A stretch of 40,991 nt of DNA from a virus. Lineage: Duplodnaviria > Heunggongvirae > Uroviricota > Caudoviricetes. The stretch covers positions 1 to 40,991 of the IMG/VR virus record IMGVR_UViG_2896607866_000004; one strand, 5' to 3'. Below the pieces are notes generated by a model. It was not told the origin of the DNA, ran no database searches, and saw nothing but the letters and a program-made list of their open reading frames with translations. Shown piece after piece: positions 2,991-13,896 of the stretch (position 1 is its first letter; each line of letters starts with the position of its first letter). The position numbers were made by a program, and so were the translations under genes.

Positions 2991-3560
2991 TCATTCCGGA
3001 TGCTCCTGAGCCACGTTGAAATCGCCATGATCACGACAAGGCATCACAACAAATTCAGGATTGCCATACATTGAGTTGATGATGGAATCAAACTGAATTC
3101 TGACCGCTTGCCCGTCACCGGAGGGACGTAACTGGACGGGAATAAATTTACGCTCACGACCAAACATCTTCTCTGGATAACTCAGGTAACCCGCCTGGAG
3201 CACCGGGTGAGTACAGCGGTCAAACTTTTTCGGAATGATGCGATCCAAATCCGGAAAACAACCGTCCACCAGTTTAATGCCGGTAATGGACAGTCGTCGC
3301 TGAAACTGGTCGCGATGAACAGCGATCGGCTCTTTACTAAAAATCAGCTCTGTCGTTTCGGCTTTGGCCGGGACGCCCCCTTCGAACTGGACAATGATGT
3401 TTTTCTTCGTCCGGATGCCGTGAGCCATGCGCAGTGCCACGGAACCATTGGTTGCCTCAATATGTTTCGGCGTGATGTGAAGACCGTTCAGGTAATAACG
3501 AACGTCGTTTTTAGCAGCGCACACCAGAGCGGCGCGAATAAGTTTTGACTGGATGATCAT
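2991..3560 (-). CDS. hypothetical phage early protein (189 aa)
   Basis: ORF whose start overlaps the stop of the upstream antirepressor-like gene (ATGA at 3557-3560); no family recognised. Confidence 0.5.
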   Translation of the reverse strand: MIIQSKLIRAALVCAAKNDVRYYLNGLHITPKHIEATNGSVALRMAHGIRTKKNIIVQFEGGVPAKAETTELIFSKEPIAVHRDQFQRRLSITGIKLVDGCFPDLDRIIPKKFDRCTHPVLQAGYLSYPEKMFGRERKFIPVQLRPSGDGQAVRIQFDSIINSMYGNPEFVVMPCRDHGDFNVAQEHPE

Positions 3561-4306
3561 GCTTTATCCTCCCATCCGATCACCTGGAAAAGCCCCATCT
3601 TCGGGTGATACCAGCGTGTGCCGCGTGGTTCAGCCTCTGACATCATTTGGTGGAACGCCGCCATAAATGGCTCAAGCTCGACGATAGCCCTGCGAGACAA
3701 CAGACCGTCCGGAGTCATGAATTCGTGGGTGTCTGTAGGAATTTGATATGCGTTCACCAGATTCCGACACTTGGCGTCACTCATTCCACTTTTGGCTACC
3801 ACCTGGCGGTAACCGACATATCCGGCGCGCATTGTGCCGCGTTTGATGTTCTCCACAGCTTTGGTGACCGTTTCGATCTTCTTTTCAACATGACTCAGGC
3901 GCTTTTGCTGGCGAACGGCATCGGCGGCCATTGCAGCGATCATCTCCATTTCCGTCAGCGGCGCGTGAGTTCGGAAATAGCTGTTAACCAGTTCGCGCTG
4001 AACCTGCCAGGCCAGATCGTCGGTGAAGGATTTCACCAACATCAAATAACCGGATTCGACCAGTACAATTCCTGCTGCTGCAAATTTTGAGAAAGTACCG
4101 TCAGGGAGGTGTCGACGAATTTCGTCGGAACCTAATTCGAAGTAGTCTTCCCCTTCAATAAGACGAGACTTGTTTTCGCGGAAATTGCGTCCCGCTGTTC
4201 CGTCCGGGCGTTGGTGCACTTCATCAATCATCGCCAGCGTCACCACGCGCTGACCGCGATATTCGATTACCGGAAACTGTTTGTTGTTGATGGTTACAGT
4301 ATTCAT
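3557..4306 (-). CDS. antirepressor-like protein, ORF6N-type N-terminal domain plus KilAC (ANT) C-terminal domain
   Basis: Start MNTVTINNKQF at 4306 with GGAG SD 6 nt upstream (ORF track long form starts 4381). N-terminus matches the ORF6N/Bro-N pattern; the C-terminal 130 aa are about 75-80% identical to the C-terminus of the 10803..11516 product. Confidence 0.7.
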   Translation of the reverse strand: MNTVTINNKQFPVIEYRGQRVVTLAMIDEVHQRPDGTAGRNFRENKSRLIEGEDYFELGSDEIRRHLPDGTFSKFAAAGIVLVESGYLMLVKSFTDDLAWQVQRELVNSYFRTHAPLTEMEMIAAMAADAVRQQKRLSHVEKKIETVTKAVENIKRGTMRAGYVGYRQVVAKSGMSDAKCRNLVNAYQIPTDTHEFMTPDGLLSRRAIVELEPFMAAFHQMMSEAEPRGTRWYHPKMGLFQVIGWEDKA

Positions 4307-4349
4307 TTTTATCTCCAGACAGCCCGGCGTGTAATACCGGGCATATGTA

Positions 4350-5180
4350 TTACTTAACCTGAATAAATGGTGTGTTGGCACCGCTGGTCATGTACTGCAG
4401 CAGTGTGCCGTTCCATTTATTGATGGCTTCCAGCTCCATAACACCGGGGTTCTGGCGCAGAGCTTCACCGCGTAAACGAATTGCATCGGCTTCGGCCTGG
4501 GCTTTTGTGCGAATCGCATCAGCCTGTCCGGCAGCTTCTGCACGCAGCATGTTGGCTTCTGCTTCGCGTTGTTTAACTTCCTGCTCGCGTTGCAGTGTTT
4601 TCTGGTTTGCCGTGACTTTGGCGTTAATGCTGTCGATAACGGTTGGTGGGTACTCTGGCTTACCCACATATGAGAGGCTCATTACCTGAATACCGATGGG
4701 TGTCATTTCTTCCTGGATGTCTTTTAGAGCGGCATCCAGTAATTCAGATTTACCGCCGTCAATAAATTTGTCGGTGGTCATTTTGCTGGCCAGCCGATTG
4801 AGTGCGTCGGCGATCTTCTGGCGCAGGTCTGTATCGGTAATGTCATCCACGCCTTTGCGGTAGGTCTGAAATACCGTGGTAACTTTCGATGGATCAACCT
4901 TATAGGCCACGCCGATGTGATAACCGATGGTTGTGCCGTCGCTCATCTGGAAGCTGAATGGATCATCGTAGGTCTTCATTTGTTTGAAGGTCGGGAAAAT
5001 GTAAACTTCAGTATTCCAGCCAGTCCAGTAGCGACCAACACCGACCACCTCACCGACACCTTTGTCGTCGCCCAGTTTGTTGACTTTGATACCCACATTA
5101 CCTGGTTCAACGCGATCGCAACCTACAAGTCCGAAGACAGCCAGACTGACCGCGAAAACAAGCGCAATTGTTTTTTTCAT
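4350..5180 (-). CDS. SPFH/band-7 (prohibitin-like) domain lipoprotein (276 aa)
   Basis: N-terminal signal peptide with lipobox LVGC; central region resembles SPFH domains by eye; C-terminal coiled-coil-like Ala/Glu/Gln-rich tail; strong GGAGG SD; start overlaps upstream stop (ATGA). Confidence 0.65.
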   Translation of the reverse strand: MKKTIALVFAVSLAVFGLVGCDRVEPGNVGIKVNKLGDDKGVGEVVGVGRYWTGWNTEVYIFPTFKQMKTYDDPFSFQMSDGTTIGYHIGVAYKVDPSKVTTVFQTYRKGVDDITDTDLRQKIADALNRLASKMTTDKFIDGGKSELLDAALKDIQEEMTPIGIQVMSLSYVGKPEYPPTVIDSINAKVTANQKTLQREQEVKQREAEANMLRAEAAGQADAIRTKAQAEADAIRLRGEALRQNPGVMELEAINKWNGTLLQYMTSGANTPFIQVK

Positions 5181-5365
5181 TTTTCCCTCCCGGGGAAAGA
5201 AAGACCCTTATAAATGGCATAAATGCAGGGCGGGGTCAGACACGCCAGAGCAAAGCCAGAAATCACTGCTACCGTATCCTTCATTGATATGAGGGCCGGA
5301 ACAATTAATCCGTAAATACATGCGATAATTGCCAGTGATATAACTATTCTGAAATAAATGTTCAT
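5177..5365 (-). CDS. small integral membrane protein (62 aa), translationally coupled to the SPFH lipoprotein gene
   Basis: AGGAGG SD 3 nt before ATG 5365; two hydrophobic segments; stop overlaps the SPFH gene start. Confidence 0.5.
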   Translation of the reverse strand: MNIYFRIVISLAIIACIYGLIVPALISMKDTVAVISGFALACLTPPCIYAIYKGLSFPGREK

Positions 5366-5425
5366 GGTCCTCCTGATGTATTCGGCTTGCCTTATTTAAT
5401 TGCGTCATGGTTAATTTCGTTTACG

Positions 5426-5818
5426 TCAGAATGGTTTTGTTGCCATCAGTTCGTAATATCCGGCGCTCCATGTGTCATATTTTCTGAACCATTTTTCTGT
5501 ATACTGTTTCCTGGCGATGAGTCTGCGCAGTCGTCTGATTGTTCGCTGGTGTGCGCGGGTATACTCTGTGGTTGATTCTCCACGTTTCCATATCTCATTC
5601 CCGTTGAAGATAAAACGCTTGTCAGGATGGCGTTGTCGGAATCCTGAACGTTCAAAAGCGCGGGTGGTCATAAAGAATGCCAGGTAACGAATTGCCGTTT
5701 TTCGGGTGAGGCATTTTTTTGTTCTTCCGTGGCGTGTTACAAAAAATAACGGGCCGACGGGTGTATCATGTTTCTGTAATGCCTGGTCAATGGCGCTGGC
5801 GGTGCGGTTGTCGATCAT
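5426..5818 (-). CDS. hypothetical basic protein (130 aa)
   Basis: ORF in the leftward operon with start overlapping the upstream gene stop; Arg/Lys-rich. Confidence 0.4.
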   Translation of the reverse strand: MIDNRTASAIDQALQKHDTPVGPLFFVTRHGRTKKCLTRKTAIRYLAFFMTTRAFERSGFRQRHPDKRFIFNGNEIWKRGESTTEYTRAHQRTIRRLRRLIARKQYTEKWFRKYDTWSAGYYELMATKPF

Positions 5819-6033
5819 TTCTTTATTTCCCCCGAATAACGTTCATGACTCATTACTTCCCAGTTCCGGCCGTCGTCTTTCGATAACAGCCGCCAGCGAC
5901 GGTTAACCTTCAGACTGAGATATCCGTTGCGCTGTATCCGATGCGGGAATATACATCGGCATCTGTACCGCCGCAGGACCAGCAACGCCTGCTGGTGGAC
6001 CCACTCAGGAATTCGTGTTGCTGTTAATGTCAC
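5815..6033 (-). CDS. hypothetical protein (72 aa)
   Basis: ORF in operon context with overlapping stop/start to the next gene; no family recognised. Confidence 0.3.
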   Translation of the reverse strand: MTLTATRIPEWVHQQALLVLRRYRCRCIFPHRIQRNGYLSLKVNRRWRLLSKDDGRNWEVMSHERYSGEIKK

Positions 6034-6220
6034 TGGTTTCCTCCTGAGCAGGTGCTGTTATCTGATACCCCGCTCTTTCTGCCAGCCATATGAATGTATC
6101 CATGCTGGCAATCAGCTCTCCATCGCGGACTTTGCAGACACCTGTTACCTGGCCATTTTCAATAGTCATAACGATCTGCACTTTTTCGTGCACAACAGAT
6201 ACAGGGGATAAATTAGCCAT
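6005..6220 (-). CDS. hypothetical protein (71 aa)
   Basis: ORF in operon context; no family recognised. Confidence 0.3.
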   Translation of the reverse strand: MANLSPVSVVHEKVQIVMTIENGQVTGVCKVRDGELIASMDTFIWLAERAGYQITAPAQEETSDINSNTNS

Positions 6221-6579
6221 CAGTTAATTCCTCCGCTGATATATTTTTCTTTCGCGTAATCAATAACCTCTTGTAAAAGGTTGTCTATAATTAACTTTCC
6301 GGTTTCAGCCTGGTATTCAGTATGTTGATTAATCCCGATAGCATTCTGGTATGCAGTTCGGATTTCTGTTTCACCCTCCACTCGACCCAATTCACCACGG
6401 GTAATACCTTCAAAGCGCAACAGCAACTGGTTTATAAACTGTTCTGTTATTTCTATGGTCGTAATGTTCTCATCCAGAAGGTCAACAATAAGCAGATCAC
6501 CACCTGTTTTACGTTTTATTCGATGGAGTGCCGCAACAGCTATACGGCGACGATATGTATTAATGGGTTCATGTGTCAT
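6220..6579 (-). CDS. hypothetical protein (119 aa), first gene of the leftward early operon
   Basis: ATG at 6579 preceded by a 195-bp AT-rich intergenic region (6580-6774). Confidence 0.45.
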   Translation of the reverse strand: MTHEPINTYRRRIAVAALHRIKRKTGGDLLIVDLLDENITTIEITEQFINQLLLRFEGITRGELGRVEGETEIRTAYQNAIGINQHTEYQAETGKLIIDNLLQEVIDYAKEKYISGGIN

Positions 6580-7118
6580 TTGTTATTTCCCGTATGCTTT
6601 ACGCAGAAATAAGCAGGCAATATGCATGTAATTTTCACCGTATTGTGCAATAAGGCAGGCGGTCTTGTGTGATGCCATATTCTTTATTAAAGTCATAATA
6701 AAGCCTCCTGTGGATTAAGGTTGTAACAATCCCCGGTGATAAAACCGCAATAAACGTTCAGGGCATATTTGTTGTTATTGCGCTAATTCTTTTTCGGCAG
6801 CAGCTTTTGAATACTCACATGCAAAGTCCAGAATATCGCTGCCAAGTGCTTTCGTTACGAGGTTACTGGACATATGTAATACCTGTGTTGCATGCAATAA
6901 ATGATAAACATTTACCGCAAATGAATCAGGCTCCAGACAAATGCCTTCGTAATTATCTTGCTGTGAGGTTGTTTCTGTCATTGCTCCTGAAGTGCATGCG
7001 AGCCTGTTTTTGACAATTCTCTTTCCTCTAATCACTATATCGGCAACATCTATTTGAGGTAGCCTGAGTTTAACGGACACTCCTTCCTGAAATAGAATGG
7101 CATCAGAAGGAGCTAATA

Positions 7119-7421
7119 ATGAGCAGAAAAACCCAACGTTACTCTAAAGAGTTCAAAGCCGAAGCTGTCAGAACGGTTCTTGAAAATCAACTTTCGATCA
7201 GTGAAGGCGCTTCCCGATTATCTCTTCCTGAAGGCACTTTAGGACAATGGGTTACCGCCGCCAGAAAAGGGCTCGGTACTCCTGGTTCCCGCACGGTGGC
7301 TGAACTGGAATCTGAAATTCTGCAACTGCGTAAGGCGTTAAATGAAGCTCGCCTTGAGCGCGATATATTAAAAAAAGCAACAGCGTATTTTGCACAGGAG
7401 TCGCTGAAAAATACGCGTTAA
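7119..7421 (+). CDS. IS3-family transposase OrfA (100 aa)
   Basis: MSRKTQRYSKEFKAEAVR… HTH/leucine-zipper-type OrfA; slippery site near its 3' end. Confidence 0.85.
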   Translation: MSRKTQRYSKEFKAEAVRTVLENQLSISEGASRLSLPEGTLGQWVTAARKGLGTPGSRTVAELESEILQLRKALNEARLERDILKKATAYFAQESLKNTR

Positions 7422-7456
7422 TCGAACAATGGCGACAACAATTTCCCATTGAAGCG

Positions 7457-8275
7457 ATGTGTCAGGTATTTGGTGTATCCAGGAGCGGTTATTACAACTG
7501 GGTACAGCATGAACCCTCAGACAGAAAACAAAGTGATGAGCGGCTAAAACTGGAGATTAAGGTGGCACATATCCGCACTCGCGAAACATATGGAACCCGG
7601 CGGCTCCAGACGGAGCTGGCAGAGAATGGCATCATCGTTGGTCGTGACCGACTGGCACGTCTTCGTAAGGAGCTAAGGCTACGCTGTAAGCAGAAACGCA
7701 AGTTCAGAGCGACTACGAACCCGAACCACAATCTGCCAGTTGCGCCAAATCTGCTGAACCAGACGTTCGCTCCTACAGCACCAAATCAGGTCTGGGTGGC
7801 GGACCTGACGTATGTTGCCACACAGGAGGGATGGTTGTACCTCGCTGGCATCAAAGATGTTTATACGTGCGAAATTGTCGGCTACGCCATGGGAGAGCGC
7901 ATGACAAAAGAGCTGACAGGTAAAGCCCTGTTTATGGCGCTCAGGAGCCAGCGCCCACCTGCCGGGCTAATCCACCACTCTGATCGAGGTTCACAGTACT
8001 GCGCATACGATTACCGGGTCATACAGGAGCAGTTTGGTCTGAAAACATCAATGTCGCGTAAAGGTAACTGTTACGACAACGCTCCGATGGAAAGCTTCTG
8101 GGGAACGCTGAAAAATGAGAGCCTGAGCCATTATCGTTTTAATAACCGGGATGAAGCCATCTCAGTAATACGGGAATACATTGAGATTTTCTACAATCGT
8201 CAGCGTCGTCACTCTCGTCTGGGGAATATCTCCCCGGCAGCCTTCAGGGAAAAATATCATCAGATGGCTGCTTAA
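7457..8275 (+). CDS. IS3-family transposase OrfB (DDE catalytic domain), expressed as OrfAB by -1 frameshift
   Basis: 272-aa ORF in the -1 frame relative to OrfA; 100% identical to the OrfB of copy 2. Confidence 0.85.
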   Translation: MCQVFGVSRSGYYNWVQHEPSDRKQSDERLKLEIKVAHIRTRETYGTRRLQTELAENGIIVGRDRLARLRKELRLRCKQKRKFRATTNPNHNLPVAPNLLNQTFAPTAPNQVWVADLTYVATQEGWLYLAGIKDVYTCEIVGYAMGERMTKELTGKALFMALRSQRPPAGLIHHSDRGSQYCAYDYRVIQEQFGLKTSMSRKGNCYDNAPMESFWGTLKNESLSHYRFNNRDEAISVIREYIEIFYNRQRRHSRLGNISPAAFREKYHQMAA

Positions 8276-8534
8276 AAAAGAACAAATGGTAGTGTCCGCT
8301 ATTGCCAGTACACCTCAATTGCCTTTACAACCTCCGGGAGAAGTTCCTGGTTTGTATAATCAAAGTTATCAACATGGAGAACAGTTATGTTTTCGAACTT
8401 TTTCATGGCTTCCTCAGCTGACTTATATGTTCTGCTATATAGCGAGTCTCAGAAGTGTTTTCATATTGAGACTGTTTCCGCAATGATTGATAAAAATGTT
8501 CGCATGTACCTTGAGGGGCGAAGCGGCGATTTTG

Positions 8535-9083
8535 TCACCATTGGTATTGGTTCTTCCGTAGAAGAGCTTCGCGAGATAAGGAGCAAACTTGTTGAGATGC
8601 GTCATGGTGTTGCTGCTCCTCACTTTTTGGTTGCTCCGGAGGAGTAACCTCGCCAGTTAACAGCCACATCGGATCGCAGCCAAGAATATTTGTCAGTGGG
8701 ATAAGCATACTGATAGTTGGTTCATACTCTCCGCTCTCCCACTGGATGATGACTTCTTCATCCACATCGAGCAGCCTGGCGAGTTCGGCGGTTGTTAAGC
8801 CGCAGGCTTCGCGTTGGGTGCGAAGGTTAACCAGCCAGCTTTCAGGGAAGGATTGTTTTTGTTGTGCAGGAGAAGCCGCAGATAGAGCATATTCATGGAT
8901 AAATTCCATTACCTCAATGCCCAGTTCCTTTGAGCGAGCACAATCCAGAAGATGGAATGTGCGTACAGCACTTAGCAAATTTGCAATATTTAATGCAAAG
9001 GAATCAAGTTCTAAGCCCTTAAGCGTAACACAGCCGCAGTTGATAAAATTAGTTGTTTCTGGAGTTGCTTTTAGTGTCTTCAT
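8535..9083 (-). CDS. HTH (XRE-like) domain protein, 182 aa (or about 122 aa from internal ATG 8909)
   Basis: HTH motif …TQREACGLTTAELARLLDVDEEVIIQWESGEYEPTISMLIPL… in the middle of the ORF. Lies immediately downstream of cI, after the cI terminator. Confidence 0.5.
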   Translation of the reverse strand: MKTLKATPETTNFINCGCVTLKGLELDSFALNIANLLSAVRTFHLLDCARSKELGIEVMEFIHEYALSAASPAQQKQSFPESWLVNLRTQREACGLTTAELARLLDVDEEVIIQWESGEYEPTISMLIPLTNILGCDPMWLLTGEVTPPEQPKSEEQQHHDASQQVCSLSREALLRKNQYQW

Positions 9084-9193
9084 ATATCCGCCAACAATTT
9101 TAAATTGAACTTAATCAAGTTATAATTGATGGTGCGATATTATGCTTTGAGAAATAGGCTGTCAAGAAAAAATTGATATCGTGTGTTTTAGGC

Positions 9194-9217
9194 AAAAAAA
9201 AAACGGGCAAAGCCCGT
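9194..9217 (-). terminator. rho-independent terminator downstream of cI
   Basis: On the minus strand, hairpin ACGGGC-TTT-GCCCGT followed by a run of 10 T, 13 bp past the cI stop codon. Confidence 0.6.
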
Positions 9218-9229
9218 TAAAATCAAAGA

Positions 9230-9919
9230 CTAACCAAATCTGTTTATGTTGAATGGTACTGATGAGATCACTTTAGACTGGATATAAAGCAGAGCTAACC
9301 CCTCTTTTTCGATGCTCCATGGTTGATAATTGGGGTTATCAGATAACACCATGATTTTGCTTCCAATTTTTTGAAGCCTTTTCACGTAGCATTCTCCATC
9401 AAAACAAAATGCATAAATACCATCGCCATCAAAATAAGTTACTGTCTTATCAAGAAAAAGAAGGTCACCAGGTGAGATTGTGGGAGCCATACTGTCTCCT
9501 CTGGCGTTACCTATTTCTATATTTTTGAATGCCCGATTTCCAACAAGACGTCGGGCATATTCAGGATCAAGTTCTATTGAGCGCACTACATCTATCAAGT
9601 CACCACGGACATGAGTTCCATCACCGCAACTAAACTCAACATCAAGGACATTAAACACGACGCTATCTGTTCTTGTCTGGTGTTTCTCTTGCGAGGAAAA
9701 GGTTGGTGAGGAGTCTTCACCTAAGAACCAGGATTGTGGATAACCGCTAATCTCTGATAAATGCGCGAGCTTATCACTCCGTGGAAATGTTTTTCCTGTT
9801 GTCCAGTACTGCACTGATTGCGCACTCACACCTAACTTGCGGGCCAGTTGAGCCTGAGTCCATCCTTTTGCTTTCAGCATCGCGGCTATTCGATTTTCCG
9901 TGTTTTTGACGTTCTTCAT
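9230..9919 (-). CDS. cI: CI-type repressor (N-terminal HTH, C-terminal S24 LexA-like peptidase domain)
   Basis: HTH …GWTQAQLARKLGVSAQSVQYWTTGK…; C-terminal GDSMAPTI… with downstream Lys (…YVKRL…) typical of the Ser/Lys dyad. First ATG is at 9919 (ORF track extends to 9925 via TTG). Divergent from the cro-like gene. Confidence 0.85.
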   Translation of the reverse strand: MKNVKNTENRIAAMLKAKGWTQAQLARKLGVSAQSVQYWTTGKTFPRSDKLAHLSEISGYPQSWFLGEDSSPTFSSQEKHQTRTDSVVFNVLDVEFSCGDGTHVRGDLIDVVRSIELDPEYARRLVGNRAFKNIEIGNARGDSMAPTISPGDLLFLDKTVTYFDGDGIYAFCFDGECYVKRLQKIGSKIMVLSDNPNYQPWSIEKEGLALLYIQSKVISSVPFNINRFG

Positions 9920-10052
9920 GACCAAATCCTGTGGGTTTCTTTACAAGGATAAATCTTTACTTGATTTTAGTGTATTCGATCCTTTTGCAACTTGCATGTT
10001 AATTTAAACTTGATGTATTCTTGATTTATAAAGTTAATGTTGGTGCTTTGTT
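9920..10052. promoter_or_regulatory. divergent cI/cro promoter-operator region (OR-like)
   Basis: 133-bp AT-rich intergenic region between divergent cI and cro-like genes. Contains an 11-bp palindrome TGCAAcTTGCA (about 9986-9996) and three CTTGAT motifs (about 9958-10026). Individual operators not assigned. Confidence 0.5.
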
Positions 10053-10325
10053 ATGAAAGGAAATGATTACGACAAACTTCGTGCATTAATTGCGCAAAAT
10101 GCCATAGCGCGAAATCTGGGTGTGACACCGCAAGCGGTGAATCAGTGGTTTTCAAAAAGCACAATTCCTGCCCGTTTCGTTTTACGCGTATGTGAAGTAG
10201 TTGCATGTAAGGTCACGCCGCATGGCTTAAGGCCAGATCTTTATCCTCACCCTGAAGATGGAATTCCTGATTCGTTACGCAAAATTTCAAATCCAAGCTT
10301 AGCGCACACAGAGGATGAGAAGTGA
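10053..10325 (+). CDS. cro: Cro-like HTH protein (90 aa)
   Basis: Small ORF divergent from cI; motif …LGVTPQAVNQWFSKSTIPARFVLRV… resembles Cro/YdaS-type HTH. Confidence 0.6.
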   Translation: MKGNDYDKLRALIAQNAIARNLGVTPQAVNQWFSKSTIPARFVLRVCEVVACKVTPHGLRPDLYPHPEDGIPDSLRKISNPSLAHTEDEK

Positions 10326-10395
10326 TGGTGGTGATATGAGCGAAAAAATAACTATTAAATACGATGGGGCAACCATTTCGATTGCCCCAATCACA

Positions 10396-10689
10396 TTAGC
10401 GTTCGCTGAGAAGTTGTTGGTAAGCCTTAAAGGATGCGAACTGCATTCTACCTTTGGCATTGAGTCCAATGCCTTCGCTTGTACACCAGGTGATGAACTC
10501 GGTTGTATCCGCTTCAACTTTAATAACTCGTTGCCCGCTTCTTTCGACACGCTTAATCAATTTTTCAGCGTCGTGTTTCCACTCGGTGTAACTGTCGGAG
10601 AGCACATCTGCATCAGTAAAAATCTTTTTGAACTCATGATACTGAATAGCATCGCGAAACCAGAATAAACCAACGGCCTGAACTTTCAT
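10396..10689 (-). CDS. hypothetical protein (97 aa), opposite in orientation to the surrounding rightward operon
   Basis: ATG 10689 preceded by a near-perfect SD (AAGGAGGT, 6-nt spacer); balanced charged composition. Overlapping plus-strand ORF 10315..10668 is the less likely alternative. Confidence 0.5.
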   Translation of the reverse strand: MKVQAVGLFWFRDAIQYHEFKKIFTDADVLSDSYTEWKHDAEKLIKRVERSGQRVIKVEADTTEFITWCTSEGIGLNAKGRMQFASFKAYQQLLSER

Positions 10690-10802
10690 GTCGAACCTCC
10701 TTTGGTTCTTTTGTTTATAGGGATCAAAAGGATAACTGAAGGATGGTTCGGCACCAACAAGTACGAATGTGCGGAATCTTAAAAGAATTTATCCGTAAGG
10801 AG

Positions 10803-11516
10803 ATGGCAGTGAACACCGCAATTTTTAACGACAAAGTATCCATGACCAGCGTTGAAATCGCAGAGCTGGTTGGAAGTCAACACGGCAATGTCAGAATATC
10901 AATAGAGCGTCTGGCAAAACGCGGGGTGATTCAACTTCCTGCAATGCAAAAAGTTGAGAACGAACAATCATTTAGCCAAAACAAATTCACAAACGCATAT
11001 ATTTTCGAAGGCGAACAAGGCAAACGCGACAGCATCATTGTCGTCGCACAACTTTGCCCGGAATTCACTGCCCGCCTGGTAGATCGTTGGCGCGAACTGG
11101 AAGAGCAGGTGCGCAAACCAATGAGCGAAATCGAAATGGTTGCCGCGATGGCTCTTGAAGCCGTTCGTCAGCAAAAACGCCTCGACAAGATGGAAGAAAA
11201 AGTCAGTCACGTTACTGAAACTGTCGAACAAATCAAAAGAGGCACCATCCGCGATGGTTATGCAGGCTACCGTCAGCTGGTGGCGGAAACGGGTATGTCA
11301 GATGCGAAATGCCGCAATCTGGTGAACATCTATCAAATTCCAACTGATACTCACGAATTTCTTACTCCGGACGGATTGTTGTCACGCCGCGCAATTGTTG
11401 CAGTGGAACCGTTTATGGCTGCTTTCCATCGTATGATGAGCGAAGCGGAACCGAGAGGAACTCGTTGGTATCACCCGAAAATGGGGCTGTTCCAGGCGCT
11501 GGGCTGGCAGGGGTGA
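10803..11516 (+). CDS. antirepressor-like protein, Rha/AntA-type N-terminal domain plus KilAC (ANT) C-terminal domain
   Basis: N-terminus …SMTSVEIAELVGSQHGNVRISIERLAKRG…; C-terminus near-identical to that of 3557..4306. Start ambiguous (ATG 10803 abuts the SD; GTG 10809 has better spacing). Confidence 0.7.
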   Translation: MAVNTAIFNDKVSMTSVEIAELVGSQHGNVRISIERLAKRGVIQLPAMQKVENEQSFSQNKFTNAYIFEGEQGKRDSIIVVAQLCPEFTARLVDRWRELEEQVRKPMSEIEMVAAMALEAVRQQKRLDKMEEKVSHVTETVEQIKRGTIRDGYAGYRQLVAETGMSDAKCRNLVNIYQIPTDTHEFLTPDGLLSRRAIVAVEPFMAAFHRMMSEAEPRGTRWYHPKMGLFQALGWQG

Positions 11517-11730: not shown

Positions 11731-12039
11731 TTACACGAAGCGGATCTGGAGTTTTTTCCCTGTTGCGCGTGCAAATTTTTTCAGTGTGGCAAATGATGGT
11801 CCGCTGACACCTGAGGCAAGATTGCTTTCCATTCTGGTGATGGCGGTTGCTTTGGTACCCATGCGTTCAGCAACTTCAGCCTGGGTGAGACCAGCTTCTT
11901 TGCGTGCGGCCAGCATTTCATCAAGCAGTGCGAACTCGTCGGCGATGGCGTCGTATTCTGCTTTAAAAGCCGGGTCATCCATCCATTTAGCTGCCATTTC
12001 ATCGTGTGTCATGATTGGTGGGTTACGTTTACCAGTCAT
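11731..12039 (-). CDS. HigA-like antitoxin (XRE-family HTH, 102 aa)
   Basis: HTH …LTQAEVAERMGTKATAITRMESNLASG…; AGGAGGT SD; start overlaps the 3' end of the upstream toxin gene by 11 nt. Confidence 0.7.
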   Translation of the reverse strand: MTGKRNPPIMTHDEMAAKWMDDPAFKAEYDAIADEFALLDEMLAARKEAGLTQAEVAERMGTKATAITRMESNLASGVSGPSFATLKKFARATGKKLQIRFV

Positions 12040-12358
12040 GCTTAACCTCCTTCATTCTGGTTTCAGCTTTTTTACGCTCAGCTGGTGGAGTTTTTTGAGT
12101 TTTCTTGATGAAGCTGTGCAGCATGATGATGCGCTTCCCTGTCAGTGTGCAGTAAAAAACGCGGGCAATGCCATCGCTGCCTTTAATCCGAAGCTCAAAA
12201 AGCCCATCACCAAAGGCGCTGGTGTGAGGTTCTCCGAGATTGCTGCCGTATACCTTCATGCGTTCAACAAGATGCTGGTATCTGGCACGCATACTCAATG
12301 GAAGCTGATCGACCTCCAGTCGGACCTCTTCACTGTAGTATTCGATAGTGTAGTTCAT
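12029..12358 (-). CDS. HigB-like toxin (RelE/ParE superfamily, Gp49-type), about 109 aa
   Basis: …YYSEEVRLEVDQLPLSMRARYQHLVERMKVYGSNLGEPHTSAFGDGLFELRIKGSDGIARVFYCTLTGKRIIMLHSFIKKTQKTP… resembles phage Gp49/HigB-type toxins; toxin precedes antitoxin. Start placed at internal ATG 12358 (ORF track uses TTG 12394). Confidence 0.6.
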   Translation of the reverse strand: MNYTIEYYSEEVRLEVDQLPLSMRARYQHLVERMKVYGSNLGEPHTSAFGDGLFELRIKGSDGIARVFYCTLTGKRIIMLHSFIKKTQKTPPAERKKAETRMKEVKHDW

Positions 12359-12395
12359 ACAGCAAAACATAACAAAATCGTTATATCTGCACAAT

Positions 12396-12460
12396 ATATT
12401 GATTCTGCAATTTCGGGACGTTACACTGTCTCTGCACCTTATAAAGCGGGTGCCGGGATT
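12396..12460 (+). repeat. 65-bp direct repeat, copy 1 (leader/5' region of Rha-like gene 1)
   Basis: ATATTGATTCTGCAATTTCGGGACGTTACACTGTCTCTGCACCTTATAAAGCGGGTGCCGGGATT; 64/65 identical to 13052..13116. Confidence 0.8.
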
Positions 12461-12676
12461 TGCACCCCGGAATTGTCAACGGCGATATACGACGCGCCAG
12501 CGTCTTTTTTATCGTCCGCGCTCACGCACGCCAGAATTATGGTGGGCTGGGCAGGGGAGCCGAAAGGCTCGCCGGTCTCCGTTGACGCCGGTAGTGCAAA
12601 CCCTGTTCAGTCCGCCACCAGCGAGATTTGCACCTCCGGTGGTGGAAGTTTTCCACAGTCAACGGAGGCTGCCATC

Positions 12677-13039
12677 ATGGCTACAGTCCCAACCCACTCA
12701 TTCCTCAAAATTGAGACCGTCAACGGCAAGGCCGTTATTTTCTCTTTGCATGTGGCCTGCCACTTTAAGCGCATGCACCAGAACATCGTAGACAAAATCG
12801 AGTATCTGAACTGCTCGCGCGAATTTTTTACCCGCAATTTCATACCGGGTACTTACCACATCTATGACGACTCTCTGCGTGGTTATTACATCACCCTTGA
12901 TGGTCTGATGCTGCTTCAGCTTGGGTTAAGTCTGCGCACAATGCGGTACTACGAGAGTTGCATTGAAGCGTTCCATGAGGCTGAAACCGTCCAGGTGCAT
13001 TCCGCTTTCCGTCGTCATCAACGGGAGGTGCACCTATGA
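12677..13039 (+). CDS. Rha-like phage regulatory protein 1 (120 aa from ATG 12677; may extend upstream)
   Basis: GGAGG SD 8 nt before ATG 12677; MATVPTHSFLKIETVNGKAVIFSLHVACHFKRMHQNIVDKIEYLNCSREFF… resembles the Rha N-terminal domain. The frame is open far upstream (artefactual 524-aa ORF) but has no canonical start near the conserved leader. Confidence 0.5.
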   Translation: MATVPTHSFLKIETVNGKAVIFSLHVACHFKRMHQNIVDKIEYLNCSREFFTRNFIPGTYHIYDDSLRGYYITLDGLMLLQLGLSLRTMRYYESCIEAFHEAETVQVHSAFRRHQREVHL

Positions 13040-13896
13040 TCCGCTACCTGAATATTGATTCTGCAATTTCGGGACGTTACACTGTCTCCGCACCTTATAA
13101 AGCGGGTGCCGGGATTGGCGTCCTGAAATTCAATATAGAGCATAACCGCGCTCATGCGGTTTTTTCGTGTCATGAGCATTGCTACGCCCAAATTATGGTG
13201 GGGCGTGCAGGGGCATCGCAAGATGCGCCGGGTTCTATGTTGACCGGTTACGCCAACCCTGTACGTCTCACCACCTCTGTGATTGGCGTCCCATGTGATG
13301 AGTTCTTTGAATTCAACATAGGGGCTGTCACCATGACTACTCTCCCAACCCTCTCTCAACCTGAAATTGCCATCGTTGATGGTCAGGCTGTTACTTCATC
13401 CCTGGCTGTTGCTAACTTCTTCTCTAAACGTCATGACGATGTTCTGAAAAAGATCCGCATTTTGGATTGTTCTCCAGAGTTTTGTGCCCGCAATTTTGCG
13501 GAGACATCAATTTTGGTACGCCAGCCCAACGGCGGTACTCGCAAACTTCCCTGCTACCAAATCACCCGCGACGGCTTCGCCTTCCTTGCTATGGGCTTCA
13601 CTGGTAAACGTGCCGCCCGGTTCAGAGAGGCATACATCAATGCCTTTAACCAGATGGAGAGGAGCTTATCAGGAGCTGGTGCGGCTGACATGTCATCTGT
13701 CGCACAAAACGCCAGAGGCGTATACCTGCATTTGCGTGAAATCCATCAAATCTGGACAAGCCAGCTTTACCCAATGCTTAAGGCCGTTGAATCTCCGCTG
13801 GCTGGCAAACTGTACGACCGTGTAGGTGATGCTGTTTTTGGTGCTGCACTTGTTGATTCCAGGCTGAATGGTTCTGACAAGGAGGTGCGCCCATGA
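13036..13896 (+). CDS. Rha-like phage regulatory protein 2 (286 aa from ATG 13036; alternative start ATG 13333 giving 187 aa)
   Basis: GGAGGTG SD 5 nt before ATG 13036, which overlaps the upstream TGA. Rha motif …AIVDGQAVTSSLAVANFFSKRHDDVLKKIRILDCSPEFCARNF…YQITRDGFAFLAMGFTGKRAARFREAYINAFNQME… begins at residue 100. Confidence 0.6.
   Translation: MIRYLNIDSAISGRYTVSAPYKAGAGIGVLKFNIEHNRAHAVFSCHEHCYAQIMVGRAGASQDAPGSMLTGYANPVRLTTSVIGVPCDEFFEFNIGAVTMTTLPTLSQPEIAIVDGQAVTSSLAVANFFSKRHDDVLKKIRILDCSPEFCARNFAETSILVRQPNGGTRKLPCYQITRDGFAFLAMGFTGKRAARFREAYINAFNQMERSLSGAGAADMSSVAQNARGVYLHLREIHQIWTSQLYPMLKAVESPLAGKLYDRVGDAVFGAALVDSRLNGSDKEVRP
13052..13116 (+). repeat. 65-bp direct repeat, copy 2 (5' region of Rha-like gene 2)
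   Basis: 64/65 identical to 12396..12460; the single difference (TCT/TCC) is synonymous in the open frame. Confidence 0.8.

What the first reader, a model, noticed from the sequence alone, without database searches (positions are those of the whole stretch)
3557..11516. Two antirepressor-like proteins in opposite arms share a KilAC C-terminal domain behind different N-terminal domains
The C-terminal 130 aa of the leftward ORF6N-type protein (3557..4306) and of the rightward Rha/AntA-type protein (10803..11516) are about 75-80% identical, while the N-terminal domains are unrelated. This is domain shuffling among antirepressor-like proteins. The inverted roughly 400-bp homologous DNA segments (about 3557-3960 and 11120-11516) are also potential substrates for inversion of the immunity region.
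Basis: seen in the sequence. Interest (0 to 1): 0.4.

Follow-up and report, generated by a model that had tools for sequence, protein, structure and literature searches.

The report
Two phage regulators sharing one C-terminal module
Two early regulator genes on opposite arms of a lambda-like prophage end in the same protein module behind different DNA-binding heads; this is ordinary module swapping among phage regulators, the module is not the KilAC domain, and its DNA is too diverged to flip the region.

Summary
The ORF6N protein (3557-4306, minus strand) and the Rha protein (10803-11516, plus strand) share a C-terminal 131 aa at 77% identity (BLASTP 2e-80). Their N-terminal domains belong to different Pfam families.

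Two parts of the interpretation fail:
- The shared module is not KilAC/ANT. Pfam PF03374 does not match either copy or any of 29 diverse family members. Profile comparison with the ANT domains of P1 KilA and Ant1 gives under 1% probability.
- The DNA copies are a poor inversion substrate. They are 70% identical, third codon positions are 42% identical, synonymous sites are saturated, and the longest exact run is 14 bp. Neither predicted inversion junction occurs in 5,426 complete E. coli genomes.

Each gene also occurs without the other in related prophages. This is a new member of the known "Bro network" of domain-swapping phage regulators. Its biochemical role is unproven.

The parts
3557..4306 (-). 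Gene A: ORF6N-domain protein plus the shared C-terminal module (249 aa). It lies in the leftward early operon, between the SPFH gene and a clamp-like ORF, on the xis/int side.
   Evidence: ORF list. Identical RefSeq CDS WP_001099207.1 in E. coli VL40 and FDAARGOS_944. Pfam ORF6N. PHROGs phrog_1726 'anti-repressor', 4.8e-67.
4028..4270 (-). ORF6N domain of gene A (residues 13-93).
   Evidence: Pfam PF10543, E = 2.5e-15, 57 bits. In the full-length AF2 model it is a separate alpha/beta domain, residues 14-111.
3569..3961 (-). Shared C-terminal module, copy A (residues 116-246). It has a linker helix (about 119-156) and a globular winged-helix-like domain (about 163-240).
   Evidence: BLASTP. AF2 model m561a25a11abe, pLDDT 84.7. 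Full-length model. phrog_6610, 3.6e-23.
10803..11516 (+). Gene B: Rha-domain protein plus the shared C-terminal module (237 aa; alternative start at 10809 gives 235 aa). It lies in the rightward early operon, downstream of cro.
   Evidence: ORF list. RefSeq 'Rha family transcriptional regulator' in relatives. 78% identical to phiP27 L14. The homolog in phage PhiR49_2 is annotated 'Roi' and directly follows cro.
10842..11105 (+). Phage_pRha winged-helix domain of gene B (residues 14-101).
   Evidence: Pfam PF09669, 31.8 bits against a cutoff of 29.9.
11118..11510 (+). Shared C-terminal module, copy B (residues 106-236).
   Evidence: BLASTP, 77% over 131 aa. phrog_6610, 3e-24.
9230..9925 (-). 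CI-type repressor (HTH plus S24 self-cleaving peptidase). It is the centre of the immunity region between the two genes.
   Evidence: Pfam Peptidase_S24 and HTH_3.
10053..10325 (+). Cro-like regulator, first gene of the rightward operon.
   Evidence: Pfam YdaS_toxin / P22_Cro.

Best explanation
Shown: both genes encode modular early regulators of the "Bro network" in a phiP27-like lambdoid prophage. Each protein has three parts:
- an N-terminal DNA-binding head (ORF6N in the left arm, Rha winged helix in the right arm);
- a helix of about 40 residues;
- a compact C-terminal alpha/beta domain of about 90 residues whose core (beta-alpha-alpha-beta-beta) resembles the Xis/MerR type of winged helix.

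Shown: the helix plus C-domain is one self-contained evolutionary module. It exists alone. It also follows Rha, ORF6N, Bro-N, KilA-N, AntA and P1-Ant1-type heads. It sits exactly where P1 KilA and P1 Ant1 carry the ANT/KilAC domain, but it is not detectably homologous to ANT.

Shown: the two copies in this phage are old, independently inherited versions kept similar by purifying selection on the protein. They do not come from a recent duplication. Their DNA is too diverged to act as a recombination substrate.

Inferred: the helix mediates oligomerisation. The winged-helix part supplies a common output, either a second DNA contact or binding to a common protein partner. The head determines where or when each protein acts. 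Each protein works on its own, because each occurs without the other in related prophages.
For: Similarity and boundary. Different heads.

Module autonomy and promiscuity:
- The family has 45 representatives at 50% identity among 1.84 billion proteins.
- Among 29 members, the heads are Phage_pRha 12, ORF6N 3, Bro-N 2, KilA-N 2 and AntA 1.
- P0012 (131 aa) is a stand-alone version.
- P0184 is a Bro-N version at 82% identity.
- The head of P0138 is 73% identical to P1 Ant1 residues 111-205, while its tail is this module rather than ANT.

Not ANT.

Structure:
- AF2 gives pLDDT 84.7, above 90 in the globular part, with helix 4-41 followed by beta-alpha-alpha-beta-beta-alpha-beta3.
- The full-length model is a two-domain dumbbell with a low-confidence hinge.

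Old divergence: third codon positions are 42% identical, dN = 0.18, and dS is not computable because it is saturated.

Independence of the two genes:
- phiP27, PhiR49_2 and many E. coli prophages carry the Rha version only.
- Six Enterobacter-type contexts carry the ORF6N version with no Rha gene in the right arm.

Domain swapping among these families is established in the literature: PMC10111431, which cites Iyer, Koonin and Aravind 2002.
Against: - Foldseek finds nothing significant in PDB (best E = 0.14). Its best viral hit is E = 2e-3.
- A very remote relationship to ANT cannot be excluded, because no ANT structure could be compared.
- The Rha Pfam score is only just above its cutoff.
Confidence: 0.8

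Rival explanations
1. The shared module is a real but highly diverged KilAC/ANT domain.
For: - It occupies the same position after a similar linker helix as ANT does in P1 KilA and Ant1.
- Both contain an HTH-like stretch.
- BFVD lists weak matches to proteins named 'Antirepressor protein KilAC domain' (E = 0.47, TM 0.30) and a better match to a KilA-N protein of Ralstonia phage Eline (E = 2e-3, TMq 0.53).
Against: - PF03374 gives no hit at E up to 10 on either copy and none on 29 members, while P1 KilA and Ant1 score 1e-30 to 2e-32.
- hhalign probability is 0.4-0.65%, and only the linker or a short stretch aligns.
Confidence: 0.12
2. The two inverted copies of about 400 bp serve as substrates for homologous recombination that inverts the immunity region (about 3.8-11.3 kb).
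For: Inverted homologous arms do exist. An inversion would regenerate two intact hybrid ORFs.
Against: - Identity is 70% and the longest exact run is 14 bp. From general knowledge, RecA-dependent recombination in E. coli needs roughly 20-30 bp of perfect homology, and mismatch repair suppresses it at this level of divergence.
- Synonymous sites are saturated.
- Neither predicted junction is found in 5,426 complete E. coli genomes; 0 places reach 80% coverage.
- All six listed genomes with both genes are colinear with the window.
- RefSeq annotation of relatives lists no invertase in the interval.
- The window holds a much better inverted repeat, two IS600 copies with 1225 nt at 100% identity.
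Confidence: 0.02
3. The two proteins hetero-oligomerise through the shared helix and module. This would couple the leftward and rightward early operons, for example by bridging two different DNA sites.
For: - The module begins with a long helix that gives weak matches to coiled-coil peptides.
- The two copies are 77% identical, so their interfaces could be compatible.
- A Limnobaculum contig also encodes two versions, KilA-N (P0239) and ORF6N (P0240).
Against: - Each gene commonly occurs without the other, so the pairing is not required.
- No oligomer prediction could be run.
Confidence: 0.1
4. The module is the repressor-binding part of true antirepressors. Both proteins would inactivate a CI-type repressor, their own or that of a co-resident prophage.
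For: - PHROGs families that contain it are labelled 'anti-repressor'.
- It replaces ANT in a P1 Ant1-like architecture, and P1 Ant1/Ant2 are annotated as binding the C1 repressor.
Against: - The labels are annotation transfer, not experiment.
- The CI here has an S24 self-cleavage domain, so it needs no antirepressor.
- Both genes sit in operons that CI itself represses, which does not suit an inducer.
- The prophage has a separate isrK/C4 RNA-controlled Ash-Rha locus that looks more like an antirepressor-type switch.
Confidence: 0.15
5. The similarity reflects a recent duplication or gene conversion within this prophage.
For: Two copies lie in one 8-kb region.
Against: - Third-position identity is 42% and dS is saturated.
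- Each copy has closer relatives elsewhere. ORF6N-linked tails in Enterobacter and Citrobacter are 90-96% identical to copy A, and 105 Rha-linked tails average 92% identity to copy B.
Confidence: 0.02

Closest known systems
"Bro network" of domain-swapping phage and satellite regulators (Iyer, Koonin and Aravind 2002; PMC10111431)
   Same: - The heads belong to the listed families (ORF6N, Phage_pRha).
- The tail is combined with many different heads.
- The genes lie in early regions.
- Neighbouring Ash-Rha genes carry embedded C4/isrK RNAs, as described for P4 eta and PICIs.
   Different: The tail module is not one of the ten Pfam families listed for the network and has no Pfam or NCBIfam model.
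Phage P1 KilA and Ant1/Ant2 (KilA-N or Ant1 head, linker helix, ANT/KilAC tail)
   Same: - The three-part architecture is the same, with a similar linker helix.
- Family member P0138 has a head 73% identical to the central domain of P1 Ant1.
   Different: The tail is a different module with no detectable homology to ANT.
phiP27 L14, and 'Roi' of Escherichia phage PhiR49_2
   Same: Both are orthologs of gene B. phiP27 L14 is 78% identical over its full length and sits downstream of cro, and the PhiR49_2 gene directly follows cro.
   Different: Those phages lack the ORF6N partner. The names 'Ant' and 'Roi' are annotation labels only.
Xis / MerR / TorI-type winged-helix domains
   Different: - There is no sequence similarity.
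- The module adds a preceding long helix, a following helix, and a three-stranded sheet carrying the invariant W-x-H-P-x-x-G-x-F motif.
BstA (KilA-N abortive-infection protein; PMC8585504)
   Same: It is also a prophage-encoded protein with a Bro-network head and an uncharacterised tail.
   Different: PADLOC finds no match for either protein. Whether that library holds a BstA model was not checked.

Membership tests
KilAC / ANT domain (Pfam PF03374) | Significant match to the PF03374 profile. | tested here: not met
   No hit at E up to 10 on either C-terminal segment or at E up to 0.001 on 29 family members. Positive controls P1 KilA and Ant1 score 2e-32 and 1.2e-30.
KilAC / ANT domain (Pfam PF03374) | Remote homology to bona fide ANT domains by profile comparison. 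| tested here: not met
   hhalign of family profile A3 against P1 KilA gives probability 0.65%. Against the KilA plus Ant1 ANT alignment it gives 0.40%.
KilAC / ANT domain (Pfam PF03374) | Shared three-dimensional fold with ANT. | not testable with these tools
   Structure prediction is restricted to window sequences and search-returned sequences, and the afdb50 library was unavailable. BFVD gives only weak hits to ANT-named proteins (E = 0.47).
Bro network of domain-swapping regulators | Contains a head domain from the recognised set (Bro-N, KilA-N, ORF6N, Phage_pRha, AntA and others). | tested here: met
   ORF6N scores 57 bits and Phage_pRha 31.8 bits, both above their cutoffs.
Bro network of domain-swapping regulators | The same tail is found combined with several different heads. 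| tested here: met
   Rha 12, ORF6N 3, Bro-N 2, KilA-N 2, AntA 1, P1-Ant1-type heads, and stand-alone forms.
Functional antirepressor (P22 Ant, P1 Ant1/2 type) | Binds and inactivates a phage repressor. | not testable with these tools
   Only annotation labels are available. The genomic context argues weakly against it.
Recombination-driven invertible segment | Inverted repeats with enough uninterrupted identity for homologous recombination. | tested here: not met
   70% identity, longest exact run 14 bp.
Recombination-driven invertible segment | Both orientations observed among genomes. | tested here: not met
   Junctions JL and JR are absent from 5,426 complete E. coli genomes. Within-population heterogeneity was not testable because no reads were available.
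Recombination-driven invertible segment | A dedicated invertase gene next to the segment. | tested here: not met
   RefSeq annotation of colinear relatives lists only the tyrosine integrase and the IS600 transposase. The Pfam scan of the window's ORFs in this interval found no invertase.
Xis/MerR-type winged helix fold | A beta-alpha-alpha-beta-beta core that superposes on known members. | tested here: inconclusive
Known anti-phage defence proteins (PADLOC) | Match to a defence-system profile. | tested here: not met
   No PADLOC family at E up to 0.01 for either protein.

The most novel reading that the evidence does not exclude
The shared tail is an uncharacterised output domain made of a coiled coil plus a winged helix; only Enterobacterales names were seen among its homologs. 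It functionally replaces ANT/KilAC. When two versions sit in one phage, they hetero-oligomerise and physically couple regulators expressed from the leftward and rightward early operons, for example by bridging two DNA sites or competing for one partner.
Probability: 0.1. Interest if true: 0.5.

Novelty: new member of a known kind. Interest (0 to 1): 0.22.

Why it matters
- It corrects a likely mis-annotation: KilAC / 'antirepressor' for a module that is neither ANT nor shown to be an antirepressor.
- It defines the boundaries, conserved motif (G-x-I-P-x-G ... W-x-H-P-K-x-G-x-F) and predicted fold of a tail module that lacks a Pfam model. That could seed a new domain family for annotating enterobacterial prophages, including Stx-phage relatives.
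- It removes a speculative genome-rearrangement mechanism.
- It opens no new biological question beyond the long-standing one of what Bro-network proteins do.

Tried and rejected
- The afdb50 fold library was unavailable.
- Iyer et al. 2002 and Clerget and Boccard 1996 are not held in the paper library.
- A PDB sequence search with the family profile gave only coiled-coil noise and a weak AsnC HTH match at E = 0.14.
- Foldseek against PDB gave nothing below E = 0.14.
- NCBIfam and PADLOC gave no hits.
- A profile search of the 5.8-billion-protein set returned mostly near-identical E. coli proteins, because only the best 120 are listed. A second search with only divergent members returned just 14 proteins, which were still useful for the AF2 alignment.
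- Nei-Gojobori dS could not be computed because synonymous differences are saturated.
- The phiP27 L15 Bro-N protein does not carry the module.
- I considered whether the IS600 pair had already inverted the region. Copy 1 has an intact 3-bp duplication (ATT/ATT) and its flanks are colinear with IS-free relatives, so it had not.
Full report
**Observation.** The window carries a lambdoid prophage. The integrase is at 894-2180 and xis-side genes follow. A leftward early operon ends in a CI-type repressor at 9230-9925, which has an HTH plus an S24 peptidase domain. A divergent Cro-like gene lies at 10053-10325, followed by a rightward early operon leading to DnaC-like and DnaB-like replication genes.

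Gene A (3557-4306, minus strand, 249 aa) lies in the left arm between an SPFH gene and a clamp-like ORF. Gene B (10803-11516, plus strand, 237 aa; RefSeq relatives start at window 10809) lies in the right arm downstream of cro.

BLASTP aligns A 116-246 with B 106-236 at 101/131 identities (77%), no gaps, E = 2e-80, and nothing aligns upstream. Pfam assigns ORF6N to A 13-93 and Phage_pRha to B 14-101. The inverted DNA homology is detected as arms 3568-3868 and 11211-11511, 73% over 301 nt.

**The shared module is not KilAC.** Pfam finds no ANT/KilAC (PF03374) match on either C-terminal segment, even at E up to 10. It finds none on 29 diverse family members. NCBIfam has nothing either. As a positive control I fetched phage P1, where KilA 152-254 and Ant1 234-336 match ANT at 2e-32 and 1.2e-30. 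Profile comparison of the family alignment against P1 KilA gives 0.65% probability, and against the two ANT domains 0.40%. PHROGs does know the module, as stand-alone phrog_6610 (unknown function) and as the tails of phrog_1726 and phrog_63, both labelled anti-repressor.

**What the module is.** An exhaustive HMMER scan of 1.84 billion cluster representatives finds only 45 relatives at E up to 1e-3, so the family is small. Source names seen are all Enterobacterales: Escherichia, Salmonella, Klebsiella, Enterobacter, Citrobacter, Pluralibacter, Serratia, Budvicia, Limnobaculum and Xenorhabdus.

The alignment shows a sharp N-terminal boundary at a P-x-[ST]-x-x-E motif. It also shows invariant or near-invariant residues, including G-x-I-P-x-G, G-[LM]-[ST], K-x-R-x-L, P-x-G and W-x-H-P-x-x-G-x-F.

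AlphaFold2, run on 25 sequences spanning 25-90% identity, gives pLDDT 84.7, above 90 across the globular part. The model has a helix at residues 4-41, then beta-alpha-alpha-beta-beta, a helix, and three short strands. The full-length model of gene A is a two-domain dumbbell with a low-confidence hinge at residues 111-120.

**Domain shuffling.** Among 29 representatives the module follows Phage_pRha (12), ORF6N (3), Bro-N (2), KilA-N (2), AntA (1) and several heads without a Pfam model. It also occurs alone, as in P0012 from Budvicia, 131 aa. One of the unannotated heads (P0138 and relatives) is 73% identical to the central domain of P1 Ant1, residues 111-205. P1 Ant1 continues with a linker and ANT, whereas P0138 continues with a linker and this module. 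This is a direct tail swap in an otherwise near-identical context.

Such swapping is established knowledge. [quoted passage not shown] Stx-phage comparisons likewise note that Roi proteins share only their N-terminal halves with HK022 Roi.

**Age of the two copies.** Codon-aligned identity is 70%. By codon position it is 80%, 89% and 42%. Of 131 codons, 55 differ synonymously and 30 non-synonymously. dN is 0.18 and dS is saturated. The two copies have GC3 of 0.63 and 0.50.

Each copy has much closer relatives elsewhere. ORF6N-linked tails in Enterobacter and Citrobacter are 90-96% identical to copy A. Most E. coli Rha-linked tails are about 92% identical to copy B. Klebsiella and Salmonella Rha proteins carry a third variant. 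The similarity therefore reflects old, separately inherited modules under purifying selection, not a recent duplication or gene conversion.

**Inversion hypothesis.** The longest perfect match between the arms is 14 bp. From general knowledge, RecA-dependent recombination in E. coli needs roughly 20-30 bp of perfect identity, and mismatch repair strongly suppresses it at 30% divergence.

I built both junctions expected from a crossover inside the module; both would keep intact hybrid ORFs. I searched them against 5,426 complete E. coli genomes. About 600 genomes match one parental half, and none has a place covering at least 80% of either junction. The six listed genomes that contain both genes are colinear with the window. 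No invertase is annotated in the interval.

The window does contain a far better inverted repeat: two IS600 copies with 1225 nt at 100% identity. Copy 1 has an intact ATT/ATT target duplication and colinear flanks, so no IS-mediated inversion has happened either.

**Independence of the two genes.** phiP27 carries only the Rha version (L14, 78% identical to gene B); its L15 Bro-N protein lacks the module. PhiR49_2 and many E. coli prophages have the Rha version without the ORF6N gene. Six prophage contexts of the Enterobacter-type ORF6N version (P0219), one of them a different insertion site, have cro followed by DUF4222 and a primase-helicase, with no Rha-tail gene. An obligate two-protein system is therefore unlikely.

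**Mechanism.** Shown:
- the architecture;
- the autonomy and promiscuity of the tail;
- strong purifying selection;
- early-operon location on both arms.

Inferred:
- The helix oligomerises.
- The winged-helix tail gives a common output, either a second DNA contact or a protein contact. Some proteins with this fold are named as protein binders in their PDB entry titles (TorI, CbpM).
- The heads give distinct targeting.

A true antirepressor role is possible but not favoured, for three reasons. CI here is self-cleaving. Both genes lie in operons that CI would itself repress. The prophage also carries a separate Ash-Rha locus with embedded isrK/C4 RNAs, which looks more like an RNA-controlled antirepressor-type switch. 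PADLOC finds no defence-system match.

**Verdict.** Interest is low to moderate.

Noticed in passing
window 7055-8318 (+) and 20170-21433 (-): Two IS600 copies lie in inverted orientation. They are 100% identical over 1225 nt and then differ by a 1-nt indel in a poly-A run. Copy 1 has a 3-bp target duplication (ATT/ATT); copy 2 has imperfect flanks (CAG/CAT). They bracket cI, cro, gene B, the replication genes and the tRNA cluster, and they are a far better inversion substrate than the finding's arms. In E. coli VL40 the IS600 sits at a different place in the same prophage.
   Followed up: partly
window 12347-13039 and 13036-13896 (+); RNAs at 12434-12510, 12535-12622, 13090-13166, 13191-13278: Two Ash+Rha domain ORFs lie in tandem, with a 79-nt direct repeat at 92% identity. 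Each has an embedded isrK sRNA and C4 antisense RNA hit in Rfam, well above gathering scores. This resembles the RNA-controlled antirepressor and immunity loci of P1, P4 and Gifsy-1. The related prophage in VL40 has only one copy.
   Followed up: partly
window 2991-3560 (-): A 189-aa ORF starts at 3560, so its start overlaps the stop of gene A by 4 nt (3557-3560). RefSeq names it 'beta clamp domain-containing protein' in one genome and hypothetical in another. It has no Pfam or PADLOC hit. A phage-encoded clamp-like protein coupled to a Bro-network regulator is unexplained.
   Followed up: no
window 11731-12394 (-): A Gp49/HigB-like toxin (12029-12394) and an HTH antitoxin (11731-12039) lie on the opposite strand, between gene B/DUF4222 and the Ash-Rha genes. 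In phiP27 and E. coli FDAARGOS_944 this position holds a Bro-N gene instead.
   Followed up: partly
window 10396-10689 (-): A 97-aa ORF with no Pfam hit lies antisense between cro and gene B, followed by a strong terminator-like hairpin at 10389-10365. It is annotated as hypothetical in relatives and is absent in phage PhiR49_2, where the Rha gene directly follows cro.
   Followed up: no
window 18432-18739 (+): A cluster of four tRNA genes lies inside the prophage.
   Followed up: no
window 39809-39988 and 40745-40948 (+): Rfam hits to CssrB (chromosome-encoded Shigella sRNA B, 230 bits) and IS009 RNA. Together with the two IS600 copies, these suggest a Shigella or close E. coli host.
   Followed up: no
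L004 (phage P1) 689-1732; protein P0138: The central domain of P1 Ant1 (residues 111-205) has no Pfam model. It is reused at 73% identity as the head of proteins that carry the tail studied here instead of ANT. This is an undescribed head domain of the Bro network.
   Followed up: partly
proteins P0239 and P0240 (Limnobaculum xujianqingii, both listed with the same longest-contig length, 3.03 Mb): A second genome encodes two proteins with this tail behind different heads (KilA-N and ORF6N). Whether they lie on the same contig or in one prophage was not checked.
   Followed up: no
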